Part shown: positions 4,976-42,187 of the stretch, piece after piece | How positions within the stretch are numbered: the stretch's first letter is position 1 | Layout: each line of letters starts with the position of its first letter | Assembly (NCBI GenBank): GCA_964588335.1 | Contig: CAZPOV010000003.1 | Coordinates: 148,125-212,124 of the forward strand | DNA from: an uncultured Pseudobdellovibrionaceae bacterium | Lineage (GTDB): Bacteria; Bdellovibrionota; Bdellovibrionia; Bdellovibrionales; JAGQZY01 | Direction of reading: 5' to 3' | DNA length: 64,000 bases | Notes under the pieces: generated by a model | The model's input: the letters and a program-made list of their open reading frames with translations, nothing else | Told to the model about the DNA's origin: nothing | The model's database searches: none | Position numbers and translations under genes: made by a program

Positions 4976-5962
4976 TTACAGCCTCACCAGCGCGGAAGCA
5001 CTTGTTAATCCAGCACCAAAAGCGGTGAGTAGGACCAAGTCACCTTTTTTGATTTTCCCGGCCTTTATGGCGTTATTGAGTGCCACCGGAATCGTCGCGG
5101 CTGAAGTGTTCCCCATGTTTTCGATATCCACAATCACTTTGTCCATTGGGATTTCAAAATTTTTCGCCACAGCTTCGATGATTCGAACGTTGGCTTGGTG
5201 AGGAATCACCCAATCCACATCGTCTTTGGTCATATTATTGGATTCAAGAGCTTCTTGGCAGGCTTGCGACATGGTGCGAACCGCGTGCTTGAAGATCTCT
5301 CGCCCTTTCATTTTCACGAAAATATCGCGATTATCCAATGTCTCTTGCGTGAATGGAACCACCGATCCGCCACTGGGGACATACAAAAGGTCGGCTAGGC
5401 TGCCGTCGGCGTGAGCATGGGTAGAGTAAACCTGACTTTTTTCTCCATCATCAGCACGAGTGACTATGGCGGCACCGGCTCCGTCACCGAAAAGGATGCA
5501 GGTTCCCCGATCCTCGTAGTCGACTTTATGATGGAGAATTTCAGCTCCGATAATAAGGGCTGTCTTATAATGTCCTGTTTTAATGAAGTTATCGACCACA
5601 CTTAAAGCGTAGACAAAGCCACTGCAAGCGGCCGCCAAATCGAAGGCCATGATATTATTTAAACCCAGTTTCGCCTGTAAGTAACAAGCGGATGAAGGCA
5701 TCAGGTGGTCGGGGGTGACGGTGGCAAACACCAAAAGATCGATATCGTCTTTGGCGATACCGGATTCTTTAATGGCTTCTTCGGCGGCAACAAGGGCCAA
5801 ATCACTGGTTCCTTGACCGTCTTTAGCCAATGAGCGCGAATGGATTCCTGTTCTTTCAACAATCCATTCGTTATTGGTGTCCACCATTTGTTCGAGATCT
5901 TGGTTGGTGAGCTTTTTTGGAGGCAGGAATGAACCCATTCCTGCAATTTTGCTCTTAAACAT
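4976..5962 (-). CDS. fabH: beta-ketoacyl-ACP synthase III
   Basis: 328 aa with AAACSGF active-site Cys context, HQANVRI, and GNTSAATIP motifs. Confidence 0.93.
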   Translation of the reverse strand: MFKSKIAGMGSFLPPKKLTNQDLEQMVDTNNEWIVERTGIHSRSLAKDGQGTSDLALVAAEEAIKESGIAKDDIDLLVFATVTPDHLMPSSACYLQAKLGLNNIMAFDLAAACSGFVYALSVVDNFIKTGHYKTALIIGAEILHHKVDYEDRGTCILFGDGAGAAIVTRADDGEKSQVYSTHAHADGSLADLLYVPSGGSVVPFTQETLDNRDIFVKMKGREIFKHAVRTMSQACQEALESNNMTKDDVDWVIPHQANVRIIEAVAKNFEIPMDKVIVDIENMGNTSAATIPVALNNAIKAGKIKKGDLVLLTAFGAGLTSASALVRL

Positions 5963-31765: not shown

Positions 31766-32734
31766 TTAAAGTGAAAAATCACTGAGTGCGAAATAGGTGA
31801 AAATCACATCAGCACCGGCTCGCTTAATGCTAAGAAGAGTTTCGCCAATGGCCTTTTCTTGATTCAACCAGCCTTTTTCGGCAGCCGCCATAATCATGGC
31901 ATACTCACCACTGACATTGTACGCCGCAATCGGTAAGGTTGAATGATTTTTAAGATCGGTAATAATATCTAAATAGGCCAGTGCTGGCTTCACCATTAAA
32001 AAATCAGCGCCCTCTTCGCTATCCAGGTCAGCTTCTAAAAGAGCCTCTTTTTTACTGGCAGGACTCATTTGATAGGTTTTCTTGTCGCCAGCTTTGGGTG
32101 CCGAATCGAGAGCTTCACGAAACGGTCCATAAAAGGCGGAAGCGTATTTCGCAGTGTAGGCTATAATCCCTCGATCGGTAAAACCTTTGCCGTCGAGCGC
32201 TTGGCGTATCGCACCGACTCGACCATCCATCATGTCACTGGGAGCGACAATATCAGCGCCGGCTTCGACGTGCAGGACCGCCATCTTTCCTAAAATTTCC
32301 ACCGTTTCATCATTGAGAATCACGCCATCTTTCACCAACCCGTCGTGGCCATCACTGGAATAGGGGTCCAAGGCAATATCAGTGATGACCAGCAATTCTG
32401 GGAACCGTTTTTTGATCTCGGCCACCGCTTGGCAATTCAAGTTCGAGGAGTTCAGCGCTTCACTGGCTTTTGAATCTTTTAACGATTCTTCGATCGAAGG
32501 GAAAAGGGCAACCGCGCCCACGCCTTTTTGCAGAGCTTGTTCGCAGACATTCAACACCTGATCGACGGACCAACGGTACTGCCCCGGCATCGCCGCAATC
32601 TCTTGTTTTTGTTTTGTCCCGTCGACTAAAAACAGGGGATAGACAAAGTCTTTGCGACTCAATTCCGTGTCTTGGCGCCAATGGCGAAGGGTGGCATTTT
32701 TACGATTGCGTCTTGGTCTTTTTGTTAGCTTCAA
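31766..32734 (-). CDS. hemB: porphobilinogen synthase (ALA dehydratase)
   Basis: RPRRNR...RHWRQDTELS N-terminus, ITDIALDPYSSDGHDG, PSDMMDGRV and YASAFYGPFREA motifs. Confidence 0.93.
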   Translation of the reverse strand: MKLTKRPRRNRKNATLRHWRQDTELSRKDFVYPLFLVDGTKQKQEIAAMPGQYRWSVDQVLNVCEQALQKGVGAVALFPSIEESLKDSKASEALNSSNLNCQAVAEIKKRFPELLVITDIALDPYSSDGHDGLVKDGVILNDETVEILGKMAVLHVEAGADIVAPSDMMDGRVGAIRQALDGKGFTDRGIIAYTAKYASAFYGPFREALDSAPKAGDKKTYQMSPASKKEALLEADLDSEEGADFLMVKPALAYLDIITDLKNHSTLPIAAYNVSGEYAMIMAAAEKGWLNQEKAIGETLLSIKRAGADVIFTYFALSDFSL

Positions 32735-33060
32735 TGATTGTCCTCAAGTTCTTCTAAAGATTCTTCTGATTGGTCGGCTAATCCATACTTTAATCGGCAT
32801 TCTTGCAGATGTTGTTTACCCACTTTTCCCATCGAGGCCAAAGAGGTCAGTAAAATACTGATGTCATCGGCGTATCCGCCTGGCAAAAAGTCGGGCACAG
32901 CGTCGACGGGGAGCAATAGGTAGGCGAGAGCGCCCACCAGTAAAGCCTTTTGAGTGACCGAAATGGACGGGTCTTTCATGGTTAAATAAACGGCCTCACT
33001 GGCGGCCATAACCTCTTTCCCAGCTCTGCGACTGTACTTTTGAATAGTCTTCCAATTCAT
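32731..33060 (-). CDS. DUF1232 (YkvA-like) membrane protein
   Basis: LLPVDAVPDFLPGGYADD matches the DUF1232 'D-x-I-P-D-F-x-P-x-x-G-x-x-DD' core. Confidence 0.7.
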   Translation of the reverse strand: MNWKTIQKYSRRAGKEVMAASEAVYLTMKDPSISVTQKALLVGALAYLLLPVDAVPDFLPGGYADDISILLTSLASMGKVGKQHLQECRLKYGLADQSEESLEELEDNH

Positions 33061-33151
33061 TCGATCACCTTGTCATTATTATGGTGCAAAAGTAGGGTAC
33101 GACTTTGCTTGACTCAAGGATAAAGAGTACACTAGAAGCTAAGGACGCACC

Positions 33152-34441
33152 ATGACAAGCACCACGATTCTTACTGTTCTACTTGTTTTCAGTTTCATTA
33201 TCGGTCGATTTCTTCGCCGCTTTGATACCCCCCATTTTATTTTCTCGGGCATGCTTTATTTAATTCTGGGGCTTCTGGTCGGATCTTATATGGGCTTTGG
33301 AATTCTCACTGAAGATCTTCTCTACAAATTGGAACCGATGACTGACCTAATGACGGGAATTGCCGGTTTTTTACTGGGTTTGCGGTTTCGCTTACTCATG
33401 CAATTTAAACGAAGCTTTGTCAGCGGGAGCCTTTTGGGTTTGACCACATTTATTGCCATGGCGTTGGTGATCTTTTTTGTCTCTCCGTTTGCCATTGATT
33501 TTTCGGCCCTGTCTTTTGATGCGACTTTTTTAGAAGGGGTCGGGCACCAGGGCATACTGAGCTACCTATCATTTCCCTTTGATGTCAATCGCAAGCAGTT
33601 CTGGTTTGCCTTGGGTACCAGTGCCACCGCTTGCTCGGCGTCCCTTCTTAGCCTTGGAATGGTTTCAAAGTTTAATAAAACCACCACCGAAATTTCGCGG
33701 GCCCTAAGTATCATTGCGCCGTCAGGGCAGTTTATTGCCATCAGTTTATTGGGCATTTGCTTGGCGATGGCGCGCGCTGATATTTCAGCAACGGCTCTTC
33801 AGATCTCATTGGCCGAATGGATTGTCGCCAGTCTGTTTTCCGGATTCCTGTGTGGAATTCTGTTTTCCCTTTTTATTGGTCGTCAATCCAATGAAAACCG
33901 TATCATGCTGGCGGCCTTGGGAGCCATTATCTTTGCTGCCGGTATCGGCACGCTCTTAAGTGTGTCGTCGTTGTTTGTTTGCTTTATCACCGGTCTAACC
34001 ATCAGCATATTTTCGAGCTACGCCGAAGTTCTGAAAGAGAATCTGGTCCGCGTTGAGGAGCCCATCTTTGTTCTATTGTTGGTGATTGGTGGAGCCTCTT
34101 GGCATCCCGAGATCAACCGCGCTTGGATTCTCCCAGCGGTATACTTCTTAGTTCGAGCTTTGGTGTTTTCTGGCAGTGCCCATTTCATTCATAAAAAAGT
34201 CACGGGTCGTAAATTGGCTCGACTGGGGCAAGGCCTTTTAGGGCAAGATTTGATCGCGGTGGCGATTGCTCTGTCTTTGGCCAAAGAATTCCCTGGGCTA
34301 TCCCAGCTTTTTCTGACAACCATCTTGGGTAGCATCTTTTTAAATGATATCGTCGCCAACTCATTGCTGAAAAAAGTGATTTTGGACAATGAGCAAGCCA
34401 TTGAGGTTCATCCCCTAGCGACAGAGGAAGGTGAAGAATGA
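33152..34441 (+). CDS. polytopic membrane protein, cation:proton antiporter (CPA2)-like, no RCK domain
   Basis: 429 aa and about 12 hydrophobic segments. The N-terminal pattern FIIGRFLRRFDTPHFIFSGMLYLILGLLVGS resembles the Kef/CPA2 'lP-x-v-x-GyllaGillGP' start. It overlaps trkA (ATGA). Confidence 0.55.
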   Translation: MTSTTILTVLLVFSFIIGRFLRRFDTPHFIFSGMLYLILGLLVGSYMGFGILTEDLLYKLEPMTDLMTGIAGFLLGLRFRLLMQFKRSFVSGSLLGLTTFIAMALVIFFVSPFAIDFSALSFDATFLEGVGHQGILSYLSFPFDVNRKQFWFALGTSATACSASLLSLGMVSKFNKTTTEISRALSIIAPSGQFIAISLLGICLAMARADISATALQISLAEWIVASLFSGFLCGILFSLFIGRQSNENRIMLAALGAIIFAAGIGTLLSVSSLFVCFITGLTISIFSSYAEVLKENLVRVEEPIFVLLLVIGGASWHPEINRAWILPAVYFLVRALVFSGSAHFIHKKVTGRKLARLGQGLLGQDLIAVAIALSLAKEFPGLSQLFLTTILGSIFLNDIVANSLLKKVILDNEQAIEVHPLATEEGEE

Positions 34442-35775
34442 AAATTGTGATAGTGGGCGCTGGCGATGTGGGAAGCTACCTTGCGAAAGATCTTTCGCAA
34501 CGGTCCGAGGATGTCATTATTGTCGATACCGATTCGCGAGCCTTAGAAAGAGTTGAAGAAAAAACCGATGTGATGACGATGCGAGGCAACGGCACCTTTC
34601 GCAAAACCTTAGCCGAAGTGGGTGTTCAATCGGCCGACCTGGTGGTGGGTGTAACAAGTCACGATAATACAAACCTGGTCATTGCCTCCCTGGCTGCCAG
34701 TCTTGGTGCCAAGCGAACAGTCGCTCGTGTTGATGCTCCTGAGTTCTTTATGACCAAGGGTGGAATTGAACGCGGGGTGCTGGATAGTTTTGCCATCGTC
34801 TGTGCCTCGCGACTGGTCAGTGCCGAGCTTTTACGGTTGGTGCGTCGAATTGAAATGCCTTATGTTGAAAATTTCTCTTCCAACTCGATTACGGTCGCTA
34901 TGGTGGAGGTCAATGAAGACTGCCGGTTTTTAGAAAAATCGGGGAGTGACTTAGAGTTGGGAAAAAATGCTAAAGTCATTGGAGTGTTTCGCGACGGCGA
35001 ACTCCGCCGCCCCTTTGATCTCGCCCATCTCTACAATGGCGATAAAATTCTTTTGGCCTCAACATTGGAAAAACTTCCCATTGCCATGCGCCGATTGGTG
35101 CAGATCCCTGGAAAGAAAGCCGTGATTATTGGCGGTGGAGACGTCGGCTACCAACTTTCAAAATCTCTGCAAGAGGTGGAAAACCGCCTGACTGTTATTG
35201 ATGTCGATCGAAGGCGCTGTGAATTCTTAGCTGACAACCTGGATCACGCCACCATTGTTCATGGCGATGGCACAAGCTTAGCCCTGCTTCAAGAAGAGCA
35301 TGTGGAGATGGCGGATTACATTCTAGCAGTGACCCGTGCCGACGAGGTGAACTTGATGTCGTCCCTGGTTTCCCAAGAAATTGGTGTTGATAACACCTTC
35401 ACCTTGGTGCATCGACCTGGCTACGCTCACGTCTACGAGCATTTAGGAATTAAAGGAACAGCCAGTGCCCATGAGTTGATTTCAAAAGCGGTCAACAAGT
35501 ACTTTCCCAATCAAATTATTCTGACCGAATCTCCCATACCGGACACCGACTATTTGGTGGGTGAATTTCAAGTTCCCTATCATGTGACTAACAACAATCT
35601 TAAAATTCGCGACTTATCAATTCCTCCGGGATGTTATTTGGTGGGAATTTCTCGCAACGAAGAGTTTTATTTTGGAGACGGGGATTCTGAAATTCATCCG
35701 GGCGACATCGTTATTGTCGTGCTGAAGAAAAAAGAACTAAAGGGTCTTGAAAATATGTTCAAGAAACTGAAGTAA
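34438..35775 (+). CDS. trkA: Trk system K+ uptake protein TrkA (two RCK/KTN + TrkA_C units)
   Basis: MKIVIVGAGDVGSYLA and a second AVIIGGGDVGYQLS Rossmann motif. Length is 445 aa. Confidence 0.9.
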   Translation: MKIVIVGAGDVGSYLAKDLSQRSEDVIIVDTDSRALERVEEKTDVMTMRGNGTFRKTLAEVGVQSADLVVGVTSHDNTNLVIASLAASLGAKRTVARVDAPEFFMTKGGIERGVLDSFAIVCASRLVSAELLRLVRRIEMPYVENFSSNSITVAMVEVNEDCRFLEKSGSDLELGKNAKVIGVFRDGELRRPFDLAHLYNGDKILLASTLEKLPIAMRRLVQIPGKKAVIIGGGDVGYQLSKSLQEVENRLTVIDVDRRRCEFLADNLDHATIVHGDGTSLALLQEEHVEMADYILAVTRADEVNLMSSLVSQEIGVDNTFTLVHRPGYAHVYEHLGIKGTASAHELISKAVNKYFPNQIILTESPIPDTDYLVGEFQVPYHVTNNNLKIRDLSIPPGCYLVGISRNEEFYFGDGDSEIHPGDIVIVVLKKKELKGLENMFKKLK

Positions 35776-35784
35776 GGATTTTCA

Positions 35785-37245
35785 TTGCAAAAACGTATTG
35801 TGGCCTACTATGTGGGTCAGCTTTTCATCATTTTATCTTTTTTCATGCTAGCGCCGCTAGCCATGGCCTATTATGACAACGCTCAGGAATCACTCAACGC
35901 TTACATGATGGCCATTTTGATTTCCATCGGCTCAGGAATTTTACTGCGCTATTTTGCACACCGACTGAAGGTGAATATTCTCTCGATTTCCCGCAAGGAT
36001 GCCTTTGGTATTGTGGCTCTTGGATGGGTCGGTTCCGGATTTATCAGTGGTCTGCCTTTCTTTTTTGAAGGTAGCATTGCTGACCTAAGTGCCTCCACTT
36101 TTGAAGCGATTTCAGGGCTTACCACCACTGGCGCCACAGTTATCAACGATATTGAATCCTTGTCGCGAGCCACCCATTTGTGGCGCGTGCTCTTGCATTG
36201 GATCGGTGGGATGGGAATTGTGGTTCTTTTCGTGGCTATTTTTCCCCACATGGGCCTGGGAGGAAAACATCTTTTTAAAACCGAAGTGGCGGGTCCCATC
36301 ACTGAAGGTTTGAAGCCGCGGATCAAGCAGACCGCTTTGCGCCTGTGGTGGGTCTATATGATGTTCACCGCTGCCTGCACGGCTCTTCTGTTCCTGTGCG
36401 GACTCTCTCTTTTTGATTCGATCTGTCACGCTTTTTCAACTCTTTCCACTGGTGGTTTTTCTACCCGTGCCGCCAGTGTCGGAGCATTTAACAACCCCAT
36501 GGCCGAATGGGTGATCATTATTTTCATGCTCGCTGGTGGTGTCAACTTTGGTCTTTACTACGGACTGTTCCGTGGAAAATTTCAAAAGCTTTTCACCAGT
36601 GTTGAAGTTCGTTTTTTTCTCCTTTTAAATTTGGTCGTTGGCCTGGTGATCTTTTTCATGACGACCCATTTCGAAAGTGGTAAGTGGACCGAAGAGCTCA
36701 GAGACTCCTTTTTCCAAACTGTGGCGGTGACCACAACCACGGGTTTAATGACCGCCGATTTTGATCTCTACCCTTTGGTTAGTAAATACCTCCTTTTTAT
36801 CTGCATGTTTATTGGCGGTTGTGCCGGATCAACGGCGGGAGGCCTTAAGGTTTCTCGAGTTCTCATCGTTTTTAAACGCTGTATTCAAGAACTTCGCCTG
36901 ACTTTGCACCCGCAAGAGGTGGTTTCTACAAAACTGGGTAAGCAAACCATTTCACGTCGGGTTCTGAGCTCGGTGTTTATCTTCTTTTGCTCCTATTTCC
37001 TGCTCTACCTTTTTGGTGTCTTTATCATGTCACTCTTAGGTCTGGACGGGGAGTCGGCCGCCAGCAGTGTGGTCGCGGCTCTATCCAGTGTGGGCCCTGG
37101 ATTTGGAGCGGTCGGACCGACGCAAAGCTACAATTTCATTCATCCCATTGGAAAATTAGTGCTATGCTTTTACATGATCGCCGGACGTCTTGAAATTTTT
37201 GTACTACTGACTCTGCTAACGCCATCATTCTGGAGGAAAGGTTAA
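35785..37245 (+). CDS. trkH: Trk/Ktr K+ transporter membrane subunit TrkH
   Basis: Four selectivity-filter-like motifs (GLTTTGATV, TLSTGGFS, VTTTTGLMT, AGSTAGGLKVSR). Length is 486 aa. Confidence 0.9.
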   Translation: MQKRIVAYYVGQLFIILSFFMLAPLAMAYYDNAQESLNAYMMAILISIGSGILLRYFAHRLKVNILSISRKDAFGIVALGWVGSGFISGLPFFFEGSIADLSASTFEAISGLTTTGATVINDIESLSRATHLWRVLLHWIGGMGIVVLFVAIFPHMGLGGKHLFKTEVAGPITEGLKPRIKQTALRLWWVYMMFTAACTALLFLCGLSLFDSICHAFSTLSTGGFSTRAASVGAFNNPMAEWVIIIFMLAGGVNFGLYYGLFRGKFQKLFTSVEVRFFLLLNLVVGLVIFFMTTHFESGKWTEELRDSFFQTVAVTTTTGLMTADFDLYPLVSKYLLFICMFIGGCAGSTAGGLKVSRVLIVFKRCIQELRLTLHPQEVVSTKLGKQTISRRVLSSVFIFFCSYFLLYLFGVFIMSLLGLDGESAASSVVAALSSVGPGFGAVGPTQSYNFIHPIGKLVLCFYMIAGRLEIFVLLTLLTPSFWRKG

Positions 37246-40200
37246 ATGAGAAAAGTTTTTATTCTGTTTATTCTTTTCTCAATCAGCTTTGCCTTAAAGG
37301 GTGCTGGTATCCTGAGTGACACCCACAATTCGGTTCTCCTAGCCATTGGATTGGTGATATTGGCAGCCTATACTTTGTCTGAGGTGGGTTCGACTTTGAA
37401 ACTCCCGCGGGTCACCGGCTATATTTTAACTGGTCTTCTCCTGGGTCCTTACGCTTTAAAGATTCTTTCGGTCACTGTTGTTAAAGAAATCGAGATGTTT
37501 AACACCTTGGCGATCGGCTTGATTGCCACAACCGCCGGTTTGGAGCTGCATTTTTCATCACTGAAAAAAGTGATCGCACCTATTTTGTCGACTTCGGCTT
37601 TAAAAATCCTATTTTTAGCGATAACCAGCGTCGGCGCTTTTTATATAGCCAATATGTATATTCACGATTTCGGTCTGGGCATGGGATTACCACTGATCTC
37701 TTTAGCCTTGGTTTTTGCCGCATTGGCTTTAGGAACCTCTCCGGCGATTTCGATAGCGGTTATTTCCGAAATGAAGGCAAAAAGTCGCATGAGCCAAATG
37801 GTTCTGGGTTCGGCCATCGTCAAAGATGTCTTGGTGGTGGTTATCCTTGCGGTTTGTATCTCGTTCACGAAATCGATCACCATTGGTGGCGGGGACATTG
37901 GCTCTAGTTTCTTACATTTGATGGAAGAGCTGGCTTACTCCCTTTTGGCCGGAGGTGTTTTAGGGGCTCTTTTCATTGGCTACTTGAAGTTTGTTCGCAA
38001 AGAAATGTTTTTATTTATTGCGGCTATGATTTTAACCACAGCCGAGGTCAGTCAGACTTTACATCTTGAGCTTCTGTTGGTTTTTATCGTCGCCGGAATT
38101 GTGGTTCGCAACTTCTGTGAGGAGCAACACATTCTGCATGAAGCTCTAGAAAAAGTCTCACTGCCGGTGTTTGTCGTCTTCTTTACCAATGTTGGAGCCG
38201 GTCTGGATTTGACCTCGACCTGGGCTTTCTTACCGGTGGCAGGACTGTTATTTGCCACTCGAGCTTTATCTTTCATAGGTGGTTCTTGGTTGGCCGGCGC
38301 CTGGCATGGTGAATCCGCGCCCATTCAAAAGAAAATATGGCTGGGGTATTTGCCACAAGCCGGGGTCACCCTCGGGTTGATCCAGATTGCTTCAAAAAGT
38401 CTTCCGGAACATGCGTCTATTATAACCAATGTTGGGATCGGCTTGGTAACATTGAATCTTTTAATCGGGCCCATTTTTCTACGCATGGTTTTGCAGGCCG
38501 AGGAGCCGCAAGGGGACACTGAAGAGGAGAGCACTCAAGACTCCACCACCATTGAGGATGTGCAGTCAGAACGACCGCCGCAGAAGCCCGCTGAGGTGTC
38601 TGAGTTTGACAGTGATTTCGACCTCATGCTGCACTCTCACACCGAGGACATGGATGATCCTCTTTTAGAGAAACAGTATTATGAATTGTCACAAGCGGTT
38701 TACGATGTTTTCAAAAAATCGCAAGTTCTCCCTCAAAAAGCCATTTTAAATACCTTTCTGGAAGCCCTTGAGAAAATGGGTGACCTCCCAGAAAAAGAGA
38801 TCGTTAACAAAATCGACGATCATTTTCGCAAAATGGGTGAGAAAGGACGTGACATCTACAATGCGATTGCCGCTTATAAAAAAGAAGTGGATCGACAAGT
38901 TGTGGTTATGAAAAGGCCGTACCCAGCCTCCGGCATTTACCTGCAAAAAGGTGACTCGGTTGTCGTGCAAGCCAAAAAACTTATGCAACGACCTTACTAT
39001 TGGTTTGCCAAGCGTCCGACTCGAGAAATTCCTTTGCGGAAAATAGCGAAATACAACCTTGATCCCATGATTGGCGCTTTTTCACTCAGTATGATCAACT
39101 CCTGGTACCGCTTACTGGGCAAACACATTGCTATTTTTCAAAAATCTTTAGAGGATCATGAGTTCAATTCAACAGAGATTATCGAAAAAATCTCAAAAGA
39201 AAACGAAATCTGGTTTCGTTCCATCCAATCCGATTTTCACAAAGAGTTTTCACAGGCTTCCAATCGATGGGTGAGCCACCTTAGGAACGTCAACACACCA
39301 GCGCTGCCCGATACGCACCTGCGCTACTCACAAGTGGAACCACAGATCTCAGAGAATTTTGAACGGGCCAAGAAATTCTCAGTCAACTGGGAAGAGAAGT
39401 TTGTTTACTGTCGAAACCGCCTAAAGGTGATCGTACAGTCGGCGCTGCTTTCCAATGCCGTTGAAACTCTGCTTGATGAAAAGTTTTTTGGTCCCGTCAA
39501 CACTGCCAAAACCAATACTGACCTTATGGTCAAAGACGTGTTTTCGTTCTTTGATCGCATCGAAAGGGAACTGAAAGAGACGGAGTCTTTTGATAAAACG
39601 GCCTACGAAAAACTGCATCAAGACACCAAAGCTTTTAGTGAAGATCATCTGCAGGCGGAAATTAAGACCAAATATGTGCGTGGAAGCTTTCGCCTGTTAA
39701 ACCGTGATATTTCATTGAATTTAAAAAAGAACCTTCCCAAAGAGGAGGGGTCTTTTCAGATCGCCTCGGAGCAAACACCGGCCGACCAGGTGAGTTCCCC
39801 ATCAGAAATAATAGTCAAGAAAATCAATCTCACCGAACTGTTTGAACAAAGCATTCTTATTAACTTTCTTCCGGTCATTGAAGAAAGAATCGAAGGGGTC
39901 TCAAACTACCTTGAGTCGCTCTTGCTTGAGATGGAGCAGGCCTTCTCAATCATTCACTACAGTCTTGAATCTCAGATTGCCGGCGAATCGGAATTGAACC
40001 CAAAAGAACTCACCGATAGCCTTTTAACGTCGATCACTTCCGAAAGAGAAAAGATCAATGAGATCTATGAAGGACTGGTGAGTTACATCGATTCTTCAAG
40101 TATCGCCACGGAAAAACTTTTAGAAGAGGTTCAAGGTGAGGTTCGTTTGGGGATTGAGCGCTTTTCAGTGGTCAACACCGCCAAAAATCAATTTCGCCAA

Positions 40201-41475
40201 CGTCTTTACAATATTGTGCAAAAGGGCCGACAGCTTAAACATGACGTTGACGATAAAATTGACAGCGCTTATCAGAAAATCAAGAAACTTGGCATTCAGC
40301 AAACCGAGCGTGAAGTTGATCGAGCGATCAGCAACAAAATTCAGTCGAAAACTCTGGACACCACCACCATTCGACAGTTTATCAAAGAAACCTATTCCTT
40401 TGATCGCGAGCTTAAAAAATTACCGCGTGTCTATTTCCGACTTTTCAGTTTGGATCCGATTCAAGATCGACGCTTCTTTGTGGCGCATCGGGATCGCTGG
40501 CGTCACTTTGAGCCCTTCACACGCGACCAGGGTTTTACCGAAAGCCAAAAGATCTTGGTCATCGGCGACCGCGGAATCGGCAAGTCGTCGCTTATCAACG
40601 TGGCTCAGATGGAAATTCAGAACACGCGCTTGATACGCATCGACGGTGAGTCACAAGGTGGTCCGCTCAATGAACTGACTCGAGCTCTAGGCTGCAAGAA
40701 CAACAATGCCTCTATACTGGCTGCGCTTCGTAAAAACGGAGCCACCATCGTGATGGACAACGTCGATCAGATGCTCAGTAAAAACAATCTCGATCGTTTC
40801 GAGCGTCTGTTTGATATTATTAAACAGTCACCTCACGAAGCCCATTGGATTCTTTCAATCACCAGTTTCAACCTGGATCCTTTGGACCGAGCCTTCAAGA
40901 TTCGCAGTCTTTTCAATAAGCTTATTGACCTGAATGAGATCAACTTAGAGACCTGCAAAGAAATCATCTTGGGCCGCCATCGGTTGAGTGGTTTAGAAAT
41001 TGAGTATCCTCGAACCTTAATGAGCGATCTGGCCATGAAAGTCGGTTTTTCTTCTGAGGATGAAATGTTTTTCCGCGTTCTTTATGAACGTTCGGGTGGG
41101 CACCTTCGTCACTTGATCTACCTGTGGCTTCTTAGTCTCGAAGATTCCGATGGCAAGAAAATCAAGCTGTCACTCAATCGCTCTATCGACCGTGGCTTAC
41201 CGATGATTCACGAATTCTCGGTTTTACAAAAATACATTCTTCACGAGCTCTACAGCTTTCATTCACTCAGTGTTCAGCAAATGAGCCAAAACTTGGGAGT
41301 GTCTTACTCCATTGTCGACAACGAAACTCAGTACCTGGAGCACTGTGGACTGATTGAAACCAAAGGGATTGACCGCAGTGTTTTCGAAATCCCCAACCCT
41401 CTGGTGATGCCGGTGGGTACGGAACTTAAAAAGGAGGGCGTCCTGAATGAAGGATTCAACAACTTACGCCTCTAG
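37246..41475 (+). CDS. 1409-aa fusion: N-terminal CPA2 (Kef-like) antiporter domain + acidic linker + ~650-aa helical region + P-loop ATPase (AAA/ATPase_2-like) + C-terminal winged-HTH-like domain
   Basis: CPA2 start LKLPRVTGYILTGLLLGP and ~12 TM segments up to about residue 410. Walker A is VIGDRGIGKSSL (40564-40590) and Walker-B-like ATIVMDNVDQ. The C-terminal LSVQQMSQNLGVSYSIVDNETQYLEHCGLIETKG is wHTH-like. The ATG directly abuts the trkH stop. Confidence 0.8.
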   Translation: MRKVFILFILFSISFALKGAGILSDTHNSVLLAIGLVILAAYTLSEVGSTLKLPRVTGYILTGLLLGPYALKILSVTVVKEIEMFNTLAIGLIATTAGLELHFSSLKKVIAPILSTSALKILFLAITSVGAFYIANMYIHDFGLGMGLPLISLALVFAALALGTSPAISIAVISEMKAKSRMSQMVLGSAIVKDVLVVVILAVCISFTKSITIGGGDIGSSFLHLMEELAYSLLAGGVLGALFIGYLKFVRKEMFLFIAAMILTTAEVSQTLHLELLLVFIVAGIVVRNFCEEQHILHEALEKVSLPVFVVFFTNVGAGLDLTSTWAFLPVAGLLFATRALSFIGGSWLAGAWHGESAPIQKKIWLGYLPQAGVTLGLIQIASKSLPEHASIITNVGIGLVTLNLLIGPIFLRMVLQAEEPQGDTEEESTQDSTTIEDVQSERPPQKPAEVSEFDSDFDLMLHSHTEDMDDPLLEKQYYELSQAVYDVFKKSQVLPQKAILNTFLEALEKMGDLPEKEIVNKIDDHFRKMGEKGRDIYNAIAAYKKEVDRQVVVMKRPYPASGIYLQKGDSVVVQAKKLMQRPYYWFAKRPTREIPLRKIAKYNLDPMIGAFSLSMINSWYRLLGKHIAIFQKSLEDHEFNSTEIIEKISKENEIWFRSIQSDFHKEFSQASNRWVSHLRNVNTPALPDTHLRYSQVEPQISENFERAKKFSVNWEEKFVYCRNRLKVIVQSALLSNAVETLLDEKFFGPVNTAKTNTDLMVKDVFSFFDRIERELKETESFDKTAYEKLHQDTKAFSEDHLQAEIKTKYVRGSFRLLNRDISLNLKKNLPKEEGSFQIASEQTPADQVSSPSEIIVKKINLTELFEQSILINFLPVIEERIEGVSNYLESLLLEMEQAFSIIHYSLESQIAGESELNPKELTDSLLTSITSEREKINEIYEGLVSYIDSSSIATEKLLEEVQGEVRLGIERFSVVNTAKNQFRQRLYNIVQKGRQLKHDVDDKIDSAYQKIKKLGIQQTEREVDRAISNKIQSKTLDTTTIRQFIKETYSFDRELKKLPRVYFRLFSLDPIQDRRFFVAHRDRWRHFEPFTRDQGFTESQKILVIGDRGIGKSSLINVAQMEIQNTRLIRIDGESQGGPLNELTRALGCKNNNASILAALRKNGATIVMDNVDQMLSKNNLDRFERLFDIIKQSPHEAHWILSITSFNLDPLDRAFKIRSLFNKLIDLNEINLETCKEIILGRHRLSGLEIEYPRTLMSDLAMKVGFSSEDEMFFRVLYERSGGHLRHLIYLWLLSLEDSDGKKIKLSLNRSIDRGLPMIHEFSVLQKYILHELYSFHSLSVQQMSQNLGVSYSIVDNETQYLEHCGLIETKGIDRSVFEIPNPLVMPVGTELKKEGVLNEGFNNLRL

Positions 41476-42187
41476 CGCTCTCCCCATTGATTTGCCCGAA
41501 CTATCGATGCAAGTGGTTTCGTTCTTGCAGATTGGTCTTTTTATCGCCTTGGCCACTCTCACTTATTATGTCACCCGCAAGTTTTTACAGACCATGGGAA
41601 ACACTGGCGCACTTGAAAAAAGCACTCTCACTTATCAAGTGTTAAACATCGCCACTTTTGTACTACCGGGATTAATTTTCCTGTATGGTCTTACCAACGT
41701 CTCTCAGGACTCGTTATTTGTTTCTTTATTATTTTTCGTTATTTTCAGCATTGTTTTCGGCTACTCATTGATCGACCCTATGAAGTCCATTTTAGCGGCC
41801 CTGATGATCACTGTGCGTGGCGATCTGCGAGTTGGAGACTACATCACTATGGGAGAGATTGAGGGCGAAATTGCAGCCATAGGAGCCTTTAATATATTGG
41901 TTCTAACAAAAAATGGATCACGGACTTTTATCCCCACCAATAAAATTCTGAACCAGGCTTACGAAATCCACGCTAAAAAAGGCGGGCCATCCATTATGAT
42001 CAACGTGCCATCCGATAAAATCAGCAAACGCAATTTGGAGCGCTTGGCTCACCTGTGTTCCTTCAAAAGAAAAGGTTCTGACATTCGTATTTCAACCATG
42101 GACGGTCAGCATCGTCTTTCCATTGAAATCGTAAACCGTGAAGCTCGCCCTTGGGTGCAAAAATATTTCGACCGCCACCTTCAATAG
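41447..42187 (+). CDS. small MscS-like mechanosensitive channel family protein
   Basis: Three or four TM helices, then GDLRVGDYITMGEIEGEIAAIGAFNILVLTKNGSRTFIPTNKIL (MscS beta-domain pattern). It overlaps the upstream gene by 29 nt. Confidence 0.6.
   Translation: MKDSTTYASSALPIDLPELSMQVVSFLQIGLFIALATLTYYVTRKFLQTMGNTGALEKSTLTYQVLNIATFVLPGLIFLYGLTNVSQDSLFVSLLFFVIFSIVFGYSLIDPMKSILAALMITVRGDLRVGDYITMGEIEGEIAAIGAFNILVLTKNGSRTFIPTNKILNQAYEIHAKKGGPSIMINVPSDKISKRNLERLAHLCSFKRKGSDIRISTMDGQHRLSIEIVNREARPWVQKYFDRHLQ

What the first reader, a model, noticed from the sequence alone, without database searches (positions are those of the whole stretch)
37246..41475. Unusual single-polypeptide fusion: Kef-like CPA2 antiporter + ~650-aa helical spacer + P-loop ATPase + winged-HTH
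- **Seen, membrane part:** the ORF is continuous for 1409 codons. Residues 1 to ~410 look like a CPA2 membrane domain (LPRVTGYILTGLLLGP start, ~12 TM segments).
- **Seen, spacer:** an acidic linker (EEPQGDTEEESTQDSTT...) is followed by a long Lys/Glu-rich helical region.
- **Seen, ATPase and DNA-binding part:** FVAHRDRWRHF...VIGDRGIGKSSL (Walker A) is followed by IVMDNVDQ (Walker-B-like). A C-terminal segment resembles the wHTH that follows archaeal-type ATPase_2/ORC-like NTPases.
- **Established:** Kef/CPA2 proteins are normally gated by fused or associated RCK/KTN domains, not by AAA/STAND-like NTPases with DNA-binding-type domains.
- **Inference:** this could be an ion transporter regulated by, or signalling through, an NTP-dependent switch. 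I am not aware of this architecture being described.
Basis: partly seen in the sequence, partly recalled or inferred. Interest (0 to 1): 0.7.

Follow-up and report, generated by a model that had tools for sequence, protein, structure and literature searches.

The report
Antiporter fused to ORC-like ATPase switch
This is a real, widely conserved but unstudied 1409-residue membrane protein that joins an unusual cation/proton exchanger to a new helical domain and an ORC/Cdc6-like nucleotide switch, always encoded next to a small MscS-type channel and here also next to the TrkAH potassium uptake system, which points to a new way of controlling ion flux.

Summary
The ORF at 37246-41475 is uninterrupted, and its domain order is real. 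It runs: CPA-fold transporter (Pfam E 5.6e-28), acidic linker, ~590-residue helical domain, AAA+ base, lid, winged helix.

It is not an assembly artefact. At least 400 protein clusters of ~1350-1450 aa share the architecture. They come from Bdellovibrionales MAGs and from cultured marine myxobacteria (Plesiocystis, Enhygromyxa, Paraliomyxa, Pseudenhygromyxa). Sources name them only "cation:proton antiporter" or "KefB".

- The "spacer" is a conserved folded domain with no significant PDB match.
- The transporter is not Kef-like. It has no KTN domain, and the DD/QD ion-site motif is an invariant Lys-Asp.
- The ATPase looks like a binding switch rather than a motor. Walker B is D-N/D, and the Walker A Lys is Arg in 46 of 106 relatives.

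New context:
- The gene sits in a conserved cassette: degenerate CPA paralog, TrkA, TrkH, the fusion, MscS-like channel.
- The helical-AAA+-wHTH module also exists without the transporter.
- An MscS-like gene lies immediately downstream in all 13 loci examined.

Best reading: a nucleotide-state regulator or scaffold of K+/osmotic ion flux. The mechanism is inferred, not shown. I found no literature on it.

The parts
33061..33151 (+). Conserved promoter/leader region of the cassette. It reads ...AAAGTAGGG-ACGACTTTGCTTGACTCAAGGATAAAGAGTAcACTA...AAGGACGCACC-ATG, with a possible TTGCTT-17-TA(A/C)ACT promoter.
   Evidence: The region is nearly identical in window, L007, L009, L010, L015, L004, L001 and L002. 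In L002 it is followed by a 4-codon remnant of the deleted paralog gene. The promoter assignment comes from inspection only; the consensus scan was uninformative.
33152..34441 (+). Degenerate CPA-fold paralog (429 aa, multi-pass membrane protein) that lacks the ion-binding Lys-Asp. The aligned residues are G-Q.
   Evidence: There is no Pfam hit. hhalign against the fusion's transporter domain gives probability 97.6%, E 4e-12 over 349 columns. The gene lies upstream of TrkA in every CPA2-fused locus with sequence available. It is absent from the short-form loci.
34438..35775 (+). TrkA (two RCK/KTN units). It overlaps the upstream gene by 4 nt.
   Evidence: Pfam TrkA_N E 9.5e-44 and TrkA_C. NCBIfam NF007039 scores 345 bits against a cut-off of 293.
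35785..37245 (+). TrkH K+ transporter subunit. Its stop codon abuts the fusion's ATG.
   Evidence: Pfam TrkH E 2.3e-68. NCBIfam TrkH models give E 1e-104.
37246..41475 (+). The whole fusion ORF (1409 aa plus stop).
37318..38499 (+). CPA-fold transporter domain (residues 25-418). Family signature residues: G163-T164-S165-P166 (TM4 break), K193-D194 (TM5), H273/E275, R339 and Q371.
   Evidence: Pfam Na_H_Exchanger. The NapA (5bz2) alignment places NapA D156-D157 on K193-D194. These residues are invariant in 105 of 106 full-length relatives. The domain is 45-48% identical to myxobacterial members, against 13-16% for the helical domain.
38500..38655 (+). Acidic, poorly conserved linker (residues 419-470).
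   Evidence: Net charge -16, pI 4.05. Identity across clades is 10-20%, with variable length.
38656..40419 (+). Family-specific all-helical domain ("MID", residues 471-1058) with three small beta hairpins.
   Evidence: AlphaFold2 model, pLDDT 84 and pTM 0.67. No significant PDB match; best Foldseek E is 0.017. No Pfam hit. A broad HMM recovers this domain in distant fused members (1.8e-106) and in CPA2-less relatives: P0161 at 2e-20 and P0130 at 3e-12.
40420..40941 (+). AAA+ P-loop base (residues 1059-1232). Walker A lies at 40564-40590 and the Walker-B-like IVMDNVD at 40747-40767.
   Evidence: Invariant motifs. Foldseek hits to ORC4, Orc1/Cdc6 and RuvB. Family-wide residue counts.
40942..41175 (+). 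AAA+ lid (residues 1233-1310). It carries R1244 (conserved in 106 of 106) and the ORC/Cdc6-like sensor-2 motif G1285-H-L-R1288.
41176..41472 (+). C-terminal winged helix-turn-helix (residues 1311-1409).
   Evidence: The model shows an H-H-H-beta-beta topology. Weak matches to LrpA, AsnC and CodY, to the Csa3 wHTH and to CasR. Relatives hit MarR_2, HTH_24 and HTH_5. Net charge is -4 to -5 here and the family median is -1.
41447..42187 (+). Small MscS-like channel (246 aa). It overlaps the fusion's 3' end by 29 nt.
   Evidence: Pfam MS_channel_2nd scores 40.7 bits against a cut-off of 20.2. An MS_channel_2nd gene lies immediately downstream of the module in all 13 loci examined.

Best explanation
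**What it is (shown)**
- The ORF encodes a genuine member of a large, unnamed protein family.
- The domain order is: (i) a strongly constrained CPA-fold ion transporter whose ion-site motif is Lys-Asp rather than Asp-Asp; (ii) an acidic tether; (iii) a ~590-residue family-specific helical domain; (iv) an ORC/Cdc6-like AAA+ base, lid and winged helix.
- It is the fourth gene of a tightly packed, conserved cassette: degenerate CPA paralog, TrkA, TrkH, the fusion, MscS-like channel.

**How it most likely works (inferred)**
- The helical-AAA+-wHTH module is a nucleotide-state switch or scaffold. It probably binds nucleotide more than it hydrolyses it.
- It acts on ion-conducting partners. Its constant partner is the small MscS-like channel encoded immediately downstream, often with overlapping stop and start codons.
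- In this lineage the module is also covalently tethered to a K-D-type CPA exchanger. That exchanger probably pairs with the transport-dead paralog, because CPA proteins work as dimers.
- Co-transcription with TrkAH would give one unit that balances K+ uptake against K+/cation release. The signal could be the cell's energy charge or ionic state, serving osmotic, K+ and pH homeostasis in marine or predatory Myxococcota and Bdellovibrionota.
- In this reading the winged helix is part of the switch, as in ORC and STAND modules, rather than a dedicated DNA reader.
For: **Domain identities**
- Established.

**Fusion conserved over large distances**
- 25 close homologues.
- 1808 representatives at E<=1e-3 and 117 at E<=1e-30, most of them ~1350-1465 aa.
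- All 106 retrieved proteins of >=1300 aa carry the family's transporter domain at E<=4.5e-100.
- At least 400 clusters, including Plesiocystis, Enhygromyxa, Paraliomyxa and Pseudenhygromyxa.

**The transporter domain is the slowest-evolving part**
- It is 45-48% identical between phyla, against 13-16% for MID.
- This argues that it is a working transporter and not just an anchor.

**Cassette conserved between phyla**
- Seen in the window, L004, L005, L017 and Pseudenhygromyxa L018.

**The module is separable from the transporter**
- Short forms of 955-964 aa keep the TrkA-TrkH-X-MscS context.
- They have lost both the CPA2 domain and the paralog. A start-codon remnant of the paralog is still visible.
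- A more distant CPA2-less subfamily shares MID, AAA+ and wHTH.

**MscS-like gene immediately downstream in 13 of 13 loci**
-.
- L024 also carries TrkA_C, CCC and MgtE genes nearby.

**Switch rather than motor**
- The Walker B catalytic position is N (34) or D (62), never the canonical E except in 2 sequences.
- The Walker A Lys is Arg in 46 of 106.
- No conserved arginine finger is seen at the R1220 column.

**Winged helix not consistently basic**
- Median net charge is -1, and -4 to -5 in this protein.

**No link to defence systems**
- No significant PADLOC match.
- The locus is syntenic next to hemB across Bdellovibrionales.
Against: - Nothing here shows a physical contact between the module and the MscS-like channel, TrkAH or the paralog. 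Gene adjacency is the only evidence.
- The MscS-like partners are only 14-20% identical between clades. That is no closer than they are to a canonical MscS, so I could not show co-evolution.
- The C-terminal domain is sequence-similar to the ArsR, MarR and Lrp DNA-binding winged helices. A DNA-binding output therefore remains possible.
- Nucleotide binding is unproven. A Lys at CPA motif position 6 has no characterised precedent that I found, so the transported ion, and even whether transport occurs, is unknown.
- I inferred the assignment of R339 to CPA motif position 8. The attempt to align it to NapA K305 failed.
- Both AlphaFold2 models rest on a shallow alignment of 25 sequences.
Confidence: 0.45

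Rival explanations
1. **Large ATP-dependent transcription regulator.** The helical domain, with the fused transporter acting as a co-sensor or "transceptor", senses ions or flux. The AAA+ module oligomerises on ATP binding. The C-terminal winged helix then binds DNA to control the cassette, including the mscS-like gene. The logic resembles MalT/LAL-type STAND regulators or membrane-tethered regulators such as CadC and ToxR.
For: - The C-terminal domain resembles the Lrp/AsnC, CodY, MarR, ArsR and Csa3 winged helices.
- ORC/Cdc6 winged helices bind DNA (established knowledge; structures hit).
- AAA_16 hits in relatives are typical of STAND regulators.
- The constant adjacency to one gene (mscS-like) would also fit a regulator and its target.
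- There is a strongly conserved promoter region with an imperfect inverted repeat upstream of the -35 element.
Against: - The winged helix is acidic in this protein (net -4 to -5). Across the family its charge ranges from -8 to +6 with a median of -1.
- The recognition-helix and wing residues are not conserved across clades.
- The module is co-directional and often translationally coupled with the mscS-like gene. That is more typical of complex subunits.
- The transporter domain is the most conserved part, which is not expected of a mere sensor anchor.
- About 1000 residues of conserved cytoplasmic mass is large for a repressor or activator with no separate sensor repeats.
Confidence: 0.2
2. 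**ATP-driven remodelling or assembly factor.** The AAA+ module actively hydrolyses ATP. It uses the energy to assemble, disassemble or mechanically gate the channel and transporter complexes.
For: - The window protein itself keeps a canonical Walker A Lys, a Walker B Asp and a sensor-2-like Arg.
- RuvB, Vps4, NSF and ClpB/C appear among the lower Foldseek hits.
Against: - The catalytic Glu is missing family-wide.
- The Walker A Lys is Arg in 46 of 106 relatives.
- No conserved arginine finger is seen at the R1220 column.
- The best structural matches are the initiator/switch type (ORC4, Orc1/Cdc6), not the unfoldases.
Confidence: 0.08
3. **Anti-phage or abortive-infection system.** A STAND-like NTPase triggers ion-conducting effectors (the CPA domain and the MscS-like channel) to collapse membrane potential.
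For: - The NTPase is STAND/ORC-like, with an N-terminal "effector" and a membrane-channel neighbour. Weak nSTAND1 and AAA_16 hits.
- Weak mad8 hit in PADLOC, E 4e-4.
Against: - No significant PADLOC match.
- There is no C-terminal sensor repeat array after the winged helix.
- The chromosomal position is fixed and syntenic, next to hemB, DUF1232 and acyl-CoA dehydrogenase genes, across Bdellovibrionales. The housekeeping TrkAH genes lie inside the operon.
- The transporter domain is slow-evolving. The family appears to be inherited vertically across two phyla.
Confidence: 0.04
4. **Artefactual fusion.** An assembly or frameshift error has joined an antiporter gene to a separate ATPase gene.
For: - The window comes from what looks like an uncultured Bdellovibrionales genome.
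- A few database entries are shorter (723-977 aa).
Against: - Hundreds of independent assemblies, including isolate genomes, carry the same uninterrupted ~1400-aa ORF.
- The true short forms begin exactly at the TrkH stop codon and lack any transporter-coding DNA.
- Base composition is uniform across the junction.
Confidence: 0.01

Closest known systems
KefC/KefB glutathione-gated K+/H+ antiporters (CPA2 with a fused KTN/RCK domain, plus KefF/KefG)
   Same: - A CPA-fold transporter carries a large C-terminal cytoplasmic regulatory region that binds a nucleotide-type ligand.
- The likely role is K+/H+ homeostasis.
- Database names for this family ("KefB") derive from this resemblance.
   Different: - No KTN/RCK domain is present in the polypeptide.
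- The CPA2 subfamily model falls far below its cut-off.
- The ion-site motif is G-T-S-P ... K-D ... R, whereas Kef has L-S-S-T ... Q-D ... K (PMC6181914).
- The regulatory region is a P-loop AAA+ module with a winged helix and a novel helical domain.
TrkAH / KtrAB K+ uptake systems (an RCK ring gated by ATP/ADP)
   Same: - The logic is the same: a cytoplasmic nucleotide-binding assembly gates an ion pathway.
- TrkA and TrkH are encoded in the same operon.
   Different: - The nucleotide binder here has a P-loop AAA+ fold, not the Rossmann-type RCK fold.
- It is fused to a CPA-fold transporter, not a TrkH/KtrB-type one.
- Whether it touches TrkAH is unknown.
ORC/Cdc6 (archaeal Orc1/Cdc6, eukaryotic ORC4): initiator-clade AAA+ followed by a winged helix
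   Same: - These are the best structural matches (E 1e-7 to 1e-5).
- The order is the same: AAA+ base, lid with a "G-x-x-R" sensor-2 motif, then a C-terminal winged helix.
- As in ORC4, the catalytic residues are partly degenerate.
   Different: - There is no replication context.
- Sequence similarity is marginal (ORC4 E 0.039).
- Here the module is preceded by a 590-residue helical domain and a membrane transporter.
- Walker B is D-N/D-x-D/E.
- I did not examine the initiator-specific motif.
STAND NTPases and LAL/MalT-type regulators
   Same: - The nucleotide-binding oligomerisation module has an attached winged helix.
- The Walker B is of the D-D type in most relatives.
- Relatives give weak AAA_16 and nSTAND1 hits.
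   Different: - No C-terminal sensor repeats are present.
- No Pfam STAND model reaches its threshold.
- The large extra domain is N-terminal and helical.
- The protein is membrane-embedded.
SUR/Kir6 KATP channels and CFTR (my own knowledge; analogy only)
   Same: - P-loop NTPase domains serve as nucleotide-state regulators of an ion pathway rather than as pumps.
   Different: - These are unrelated folds and lineages: ABC NBDs against AAA+, and eukaryotic.
- No homology is implied.
MscK (KefA) and other MscS-family channels with large accessory domains
   Same: - An MscS-type pore is linked to K+ physiology and to additional regulatory mass.
   Different: - Here the MscS-like protein is minimal (246 aa).
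- The large regulatory protein is a separate gene product of the AAA+ type.

Membership tests
CPA superfamily (Pfam Na_H_Exchanger, PF00999) | The whole-protein score exceeds Pfam's gathering threshold. | tested here: met
   98.3 bits against 26.2, covering residues 42-416 and model positions 8-373 of 375.
CPA superfamily | The essential ion-binding Asp on TM5 is present (CPA motif position 7; EcNhaA D164, NapA D157). | tested here: met
   D194 aligns with NapA D157. It is D in 104 of 106 relatives.
CPA2 subfamily (NCBIfam TIGR00932) | The score exceeds the curated cut-off. | tested here: not met
   62.9 bits against 238.3.
CPA2 (Masrati et al. 2018 motif, PMC6181914) | Position 6 on TM5 is Asp (electrogenic) or Asn/Gln. 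Position 5 is not Glu. Position 8 on TM10 is basic. | tested here: not met
   - Position 6 is Lys (K193), in 105 of 106 relatives.
- Position 5 is S189, so it is not Glu and the protein is not CPA1.
- An invariant R339 is the likely position 8, but I only inferred this.
Kef-type K+ efflux systems | A fused C-terminal KTN/RCK domain and the L-S-S-T / Q-D motif. | tested here: not met
   No TrkA_N or TrkA_C hit in the fusion. The motif is G-T-S-P / K-D.
P-loop AAA+ NTPase | Walker A of the form GxxGxGK[ST]. | tested here: met
   G1107-DRGIG-K1113-SS is invariant in the clade. Family-wide the Lys is K in 59 and R in 46 sequences.
P-loop AAA+ NTPase | Walker B of the form hhhhD-E, with a catalytic Glu. 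| tested here: not met
   The sequence is IVM-D1171-N1172. Family-wide the second position is D in 62, N in 34, G in 8 and E in 2 sequences.
P-loop AAA+ NTPase | A Pfam AAA-type model scores above its gathering threshold. | tested here: not met
   AAA_22 scores 21.3 against 27. AAA scores 17.5 against 21.2. AAA_16 scores 14.8 against 32.6.
ORC/Cdc6-type AAA+ | The fold is an AAA+ base, a helical lid and a C-terminal winged helix. | tested here: met
   Foldseek top hits are ORC4, Orc1/Cdc6 (2qby, 1fnn, 2v1u) and RuvB, at E 1e-7 to 1e-5 and probability 1.00. TM-scores are low (0.3 on target length) because the query has 960 residues and several domains.
ORC/Cdc6-type AAA+ | A sensor-2 Arg in the lid (a "G-D/N-x-R" motif). 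| tested here: met
   G1285-H-L-R1288 in this protein. The Arg is present in 68 of 106 relatives.
ORC/Cdc6-type AAA+ | An arginine finger (box VII) and the initiator-specific motif. | tested here: inconclusive
   The candidate R1220 is Arg in only 57 of 106 relatives. I did not examine the initiator-specific motif.
STAND NTPases | A C-terminal sensor repeat domain (TPR, WD40 or LRR) after the NOD-winged-helix module, and a STAND Pfam model above threshold. | tested here: not met
   The protein ends about 40 residues after the winged helix. nSTAND1 scores 11.9 against 27.1.
DNA-binding winged-helix regulators (MarR, ArsR, Lrp) | Sequence membership and actual DNA binding. | tested here: inconclusive
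   - Only weak hits were found: LrpA E 0.024, Csa3 E 0.031, CasR 5e-4.
- The domain is acidic in this protein.
- DNA binding itself cannot be tested with these tools.
MscS family (downstream gene 41447-42187) | The Pfam MS_channel_2nd beta-domain scores above threshold. | tested here: met
   40.7 bits against 20.2. Three predicted TM helices precede the beta-domain (my reading of the sequence).
TrkA / TrkH (upstream genes) | The curated family models score above threshold. | tested here: met
   - TrkA: NF007039 scores 345 against 293.
- TrkH: Pfam scores 231 against 27.
- The TrkH NCBIfam equivalog cut-off is not reached (351 against 866).
Known anti-phage defence systems (PADLOC-DB 2.0) | A significant match to any defence protein model. 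| tested here: not met
   The best hit is mad8 at E 4e-4 and 18 bits. The MscS-like protein, the paralog and P0138 gave no hits.

The most novel reading that the evidence does not exclude
The helical-AAA+-winged-helix protein and the small MscS-like channel form a previously unrecognised two-component ion-flux device that is widespread. In it, an ORC/STAND-like P-loop nucleotide switch directly gates an MscS-type pore. In the fused forms it also gates a Lys-Asp-type CPA transporter that works as a heterodimer with a transport-dead paralog. This would be the first P-loop NTPase regulator known for either the MscS or the CPA family. It would also be a new use of the replication-initiator AAA+ fold at the membrane.
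Probability: 0.3. Interest if true: 0.85.

Novelty: new variant of a known kind. Interest (0 to 1): 0.68.

Why it matters
- **A gap in known regulation.** Bacterial K+, pH and turgor control is thought to rest on three things: RCK/KTN domains, second messengers such as c-di-AMP, and membrane tension. No P-loop or AAA+ regulator of a CPA exchanger or an MscS channel is known.
- **Scale of the family.** It has hundreds of clusters in two phyla of predatory or marine bacteria, including culturable strains. It combines an atypical exchanger (a Lys at the ion site), a large domain with no significant PDB match, and an ORC-like switch. It is locked into an operon with TrkAH and an MscS-like channel.
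- **If the model holds.** It adds a new regulatory principle for ion homeostasis. It gives a function to a 590-residue orphan domain. It also supplies a natural Lys-for-Asp variant that bears on the debated CPA transport mechanism.
- **If the winged helix instead binds DNA.** The protein would be a new class of transporter-tethered regulator.
- **Annotation.** In either case the current database names ("KefB", "cation:proton antiporter", and even "diguanylate cyclase") are inadequate.

Tried and rejected
**Searches that gave nothing useful**
- Sequence searches of the PDB with the transporter domain found nothing at E<=0.01. Only NapA appeared, at E 0.013.
- Aligning NapA's C-terminal half to the family HMM, to map K305, failed because it locked onto the internal repeat. 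The R339 assignment therefore stays an inference.
- Foldseek of the helical domain against the PDB returned only generic or designed helical bundles (best E 0.017).
- A second homologous-protein run with a diverse alignment returned only the close clade.
- Four literature searches found nothing on this architecture. One further query was rejected for syntax.
- The consensus promoter/terminator scan was at chance level.

**Ideas I considered and rejected**
- *Misassembly.* Rejected because of the architecture's recurrence.
- *A defence system.* Rejected on the PADLOC result and the synteny.
- *The 657-aa and 659-aa unknown neighbours in L018 and L020 are a further shared component.* They are not homologous to each other and have no Pfam hit.
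- *The separate Na_H_Exchanger gene in L020 is an unfused orthologue.* It has N-N at the K-D position, so it is a different CPA type.
- *The MscS-like partners form one distinctive subfamily.* Identities between clades are only 14-20%, no higher than to a canonical MscS. Only a short shared "C-P-Y/F" motif hints at relatedness.

Full report
**1.

- The window contains one uninterrupted ORF, 37246..41475 (+), of 1409 codons. Its ATG follows the stop codon of the upstream gene directly.
- Residues 42-416 match Pfam Na_H_Exchanger well above threshold (E 5.6e-28, 98.3 bits against 26.2).
- A Kyte-Doolittle scan finds about a dozen hydrophobic segments before residue 418 and none after 430.
- The linker (418-470) has net charge -16.

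**2. It is not an artefact, and it is not rare**

- A search with residues 420-1409 returned 25 proteins down to 41% identity. Most are ~1400 aa and carry PF00999 at the N-terminus.
- A profile search of 1.84 billion cluster representatives found 1808 proteins at E<=1e-3, 1001 at E<=1e-10 and 117 at E<=1e-30. Most of the top hits are 1350-1465 aa and match from about residue 450-550 to the C-terminus.
- All 106 retrieved proteins of >=1300 aa carry the family's own transporter domain at E<=4.5e-100.
- A search seeded with the Pseudenhygromyxa member found at least 400 clusters at E<=1e-40. Named sources include Plesiocystis pacifica SIR-1, Enhygromyxa salina, Paraliomyxa miuraensis, and Nannocystaceae and Myxococcales MAGs.
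- The close clade consists of Bdellovibrionales and Pseudobdellovibrionaceae MAGs.
- Sources call these proteins "cation:proton antiporter" or "KefB". One is called "diguanylate cyclase/phosphodiesterase". No NCBIfam model covers them.

**3. Anatomy**

*(a) Transporter domain*
- The only PDB sequence match is NapA (5bz2, E 0.013). The alignment is clear around TM4-TM5. NapA "ATSV" aligns with G163-T164-S165-P166, and NapA "AAVIDDVLG" aligns with "SAIVK193-D194-VLV".
- In the eight-position CPA motif of Masrati et al. (PMC6181914), position 7 (Asp) is kept. Position 5 is not Glu, so the protein is not CPA1.
- Position 6 is Lys. In the passages of that paper I retrieved, position 6 is given as Asp, Asn or Gln. 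Lys at that position did not appear there.
- K193, D194, T164, S165, R339 and Q371 are each conserved in 104-105 of 106 relatives. H273 and E275 are conserved in 98 and 96.
- This domain is 45-48% identical between the window protein and myxobacterial members. The helical domain is 13-16% identical and the AAA+ base 26-28%. The transporter domain is therefore under the strongest constraint. I read it as a working ion pathway and not just a membrane anchor.
- It is not Kef. No KTN domain is present, and TIGR00932 scores 62.9 against 238.3.

*(b) Helical domain (~471-1058)*
- AlphaFold2 gives a confident all-helical bundle with three small hairpins (pLDDT 84, pTM 0.67).
- Foldseek against the PDB finds nothing significant (best E 0.017, then designed bundles).
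- Pfam finds nothing.
- A broad HMM built from 106 diverse members recovers the domain in L017 (1.8e-106). It also recovers it in proteins that lack the transporter: P0161 at 2e-20, P0130 at 3e-12 and P0127 at 6e-9.

*(c) C-terminal module (1059-1409)*
- Foldseek of the 960-residue cytoplasmic model (pLDDT 75.8) puts ORC4, archaeal Orc1/Cdc6 and RuvB on top (E 1e-7 to 1e-5).
- The profile search of PDB sequences gives ORC4 at E 0.039 and LrpA, AsnC and CodY winged helices at 0.02-0.8.
- Motif counts across 106 relatives:
  - Walker A Lys is K in 59 and R in 46.
  - Walker B is D in 101, followed by D in 62 or N in 34.
  - The +2 acidic position is E in 63 and D in 28.
  - R1244 is conserved in 106 of 106.
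  - The sensor-2-like Arg is present in 68 of 106.
  - The candidate arginine finger is Arg in only 57 of 106.
- This pattern is that of a nucleotide-binding switch with weak or no hydrolysis.
- The winged helix carries net charge -4 to -5 here. The family median is -1, with a range of -8 to +6.

**4. Context**

- The window's genes are tightly packed:
  - 33152-34441, 429-aa membrane protein with no Pfam hit;
  - 34438-35775, TrkA;
  - 35785-37245, TrkH;
  - 37246-41475, the fusion;
  - 41447-42187, 246-aa MscS-like protein.
- The 429-aa protein is a distant paralog of the fusion's transporter domain (hhalign probability 97.6%, E 4e-12 over 349 columns). It has G-Q where the fusion has K-D, so it lacks the essential Asp.
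- The same five-gene cassette occurs at 41-52% identity (L004, L005). It also occurs in a distant member (L017) and in Pseudenhygromyxa of the Myxococcota (L018).
- In two lineages the protein is only 955-964 aa and starts at the TrkH stop codon (L001, L002, L003). There, both the transporter domain and the paralog gene are missing.
- In L002 the conserved promoter is followed by "ATGACAACCAGCTGA", a remnant of the paralog's start. Deletion is therefore the likely history.
- The two CPA-fold units are present together or absent together. Combined with the established dimeric nature of CPA transporters, this suggests a heterodimer. That is an inference.
- The more distant subfamily without a transporter (870-1022 aa) shares MID, AAA+ and wHTH.
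- In all six loci of that subfamily that I examined, the next gene downstream is an MS_channel_2nd protein (L019-L024).
- Counting the fused and short forms as well, an MscS-like gene is immediately downstream in 13 of 13 loci. Stop and start codons often overlap.
- The MscS-like partners are very divergent between clades (14-20% identity), so I could not demonstrate co-evolution.

**5. Mechanism**

*Shown*
- The domain identities.
- Their conservation.
- The separability of the cytoplasmic module from the transporter.
- The invariant gene pairing with an MscS-like channel.
- The Trk-containing cassette in two phyla.

*Inferred*
- The helical-AAA+-wHTH module is a nucleotide-state switch or scaffold for ion-conducting partners.
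- In this lineage it is tethered to a K-D-type CPA exchanger that pairs with a dead paralog.
- It is expressed with TrkAH so that K+ uptake and release are coordinated.
- I give this reading about 0.45.

*Rivals*
- The main rival (about 0.2) is that the winged helix binds DNA and the protein is a large ATP-dependent regulator of the cassette, tethered to a transporter. The MarR/ArsR/Lrp-like sequence signal and the conserved promoter keep this alive. The acidic, poorly conserved winged helix and the translational coupling to the mscS-like gene argue against it.
- A defence role is unlikely. PADLOC is negative, the locus is syntenic with housekeeping genes, and there are no sensor repeats.
- An ATP-driven remodelling role is disfavoured by the degenerate catalytic residues.

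**6. Comparison and novelty**

- The protein works most like the nucleotide-gated K+ systems: KefC-KTN and TrkAH/KtrAB. By analogy only, it also resembles SUR/Kir6.
- It is a member of neither Kef nor the RCK world.
- Its switch is structurally an ORC/Cdc6-like AAA+ with a winged helix, with STAND-like Walker B features. It fails the sequence thresholds of every curated AAA or STAND model.
- I found no paper describing it.
- I rate it a new variant of a known kind: a transporter with a fused regulatory module of a type not previously linked to CPA or MscS proteins.
- A more radical reading is open at about 0.3: a new AAA+-MscS ion-flux system.

**7. Caveats**

- Everything functional rests on gene adjacency and motif logic.
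- Both structural models come from a 25-sequence alignment.
- Two fold libraries were unavailable.
- Taxonomic breadth beyond Bdellovibrionota and Myxococcota is unknown, because most relatives are unnamed metagenomic sequences.

Noticed in passing
window 33061-33151 (also L001, L002, L004, L007, L009, L010, L015 upstream regions): The ~70-bp region upstream of the cassette is almost identical across Bdellovibrionales loci. It contains a plausible TTGCTT-17-TA(A/C)ACT promoter and an imperfect inverted repeat (CAAAG...CTTTG) just upstream of it. This could be an operator.
   Followed up: partly
L002 ~5150-5190 and L001 ~5150-5195: Short-form loci keep the conserved promoter. In L002 a 4-codon remnant (ATGACAACCAGCTGA) of the deleted CPA-paralog gene follows it, directly before TrkA. 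This looks like a clean deletion scar.
   Followed up: partly
L004 3986-4765 and 4789-5196: In this metagenomic contig the CPA paralog is split into two ORFs of 259 and 135 aa. The cause could be a frameshift, a pseudogene or a sequencing error.
   Followed up: no
window 31766-33060 (- strand): hemB (ALAD) and a DUF1232 membrane protein lie divergently upstream of the cassette. This arrangement is syntenic in L001, L002 and L004. Acyl-CoA dehydrogenase and E1 dehydrogenase genes lie downstream in both the window and L002.
   Followed up: partly
P0192 (Enhygromyxa salina homologue): A full-length family member is annotated in NCBI and UniRef as "diguanylate cyclase/phosphodiesterase". Its only precomputed Pfam domain is Na_H_Exchanger, so this looks like a misannotation.
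   Followed up: no
L020 326-5908: Upstream of the CPA2-less relative P0138 lie four genes: a canonical MscS, an HtrA-like protease, a separate Na_H_Exchanger gene (N-N at the K-D position) and a 659-aa protein with no Pfam hit. This is a second, different ion-related neighbourhood around the same module.
   Followed up: partly
L024 2055-2702 and 8236-11726: Another CPA2-less relative (P0130) sits among a TrkA_C-domain protein, a cation-chloride cotransporter-like gene and MgtE. This is again an ion-homeostasis neighbourhood.
   Followed up: no
MscS-like partners (window 41447-42187; L001, L002, L004, L005, L017-L019): A short motif, (L/T)-C-(P/S)-(Y/F), in the C-terminal alpha-beta domain is shared by most partner MscS-like proteins. 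The canonical MscS of L020 lacks it. It could mark the contact site with the module.
   Followed up: no
Family-wide, Walker A (window residue K1113, nt 40582-40584): Nearly half of the family (46 of 106) naturally carries Arg instead of the Walker A Lys (GSGR[ST]S). This substitution is unusual in nature for a P-loop protein.
   Followed up: partly
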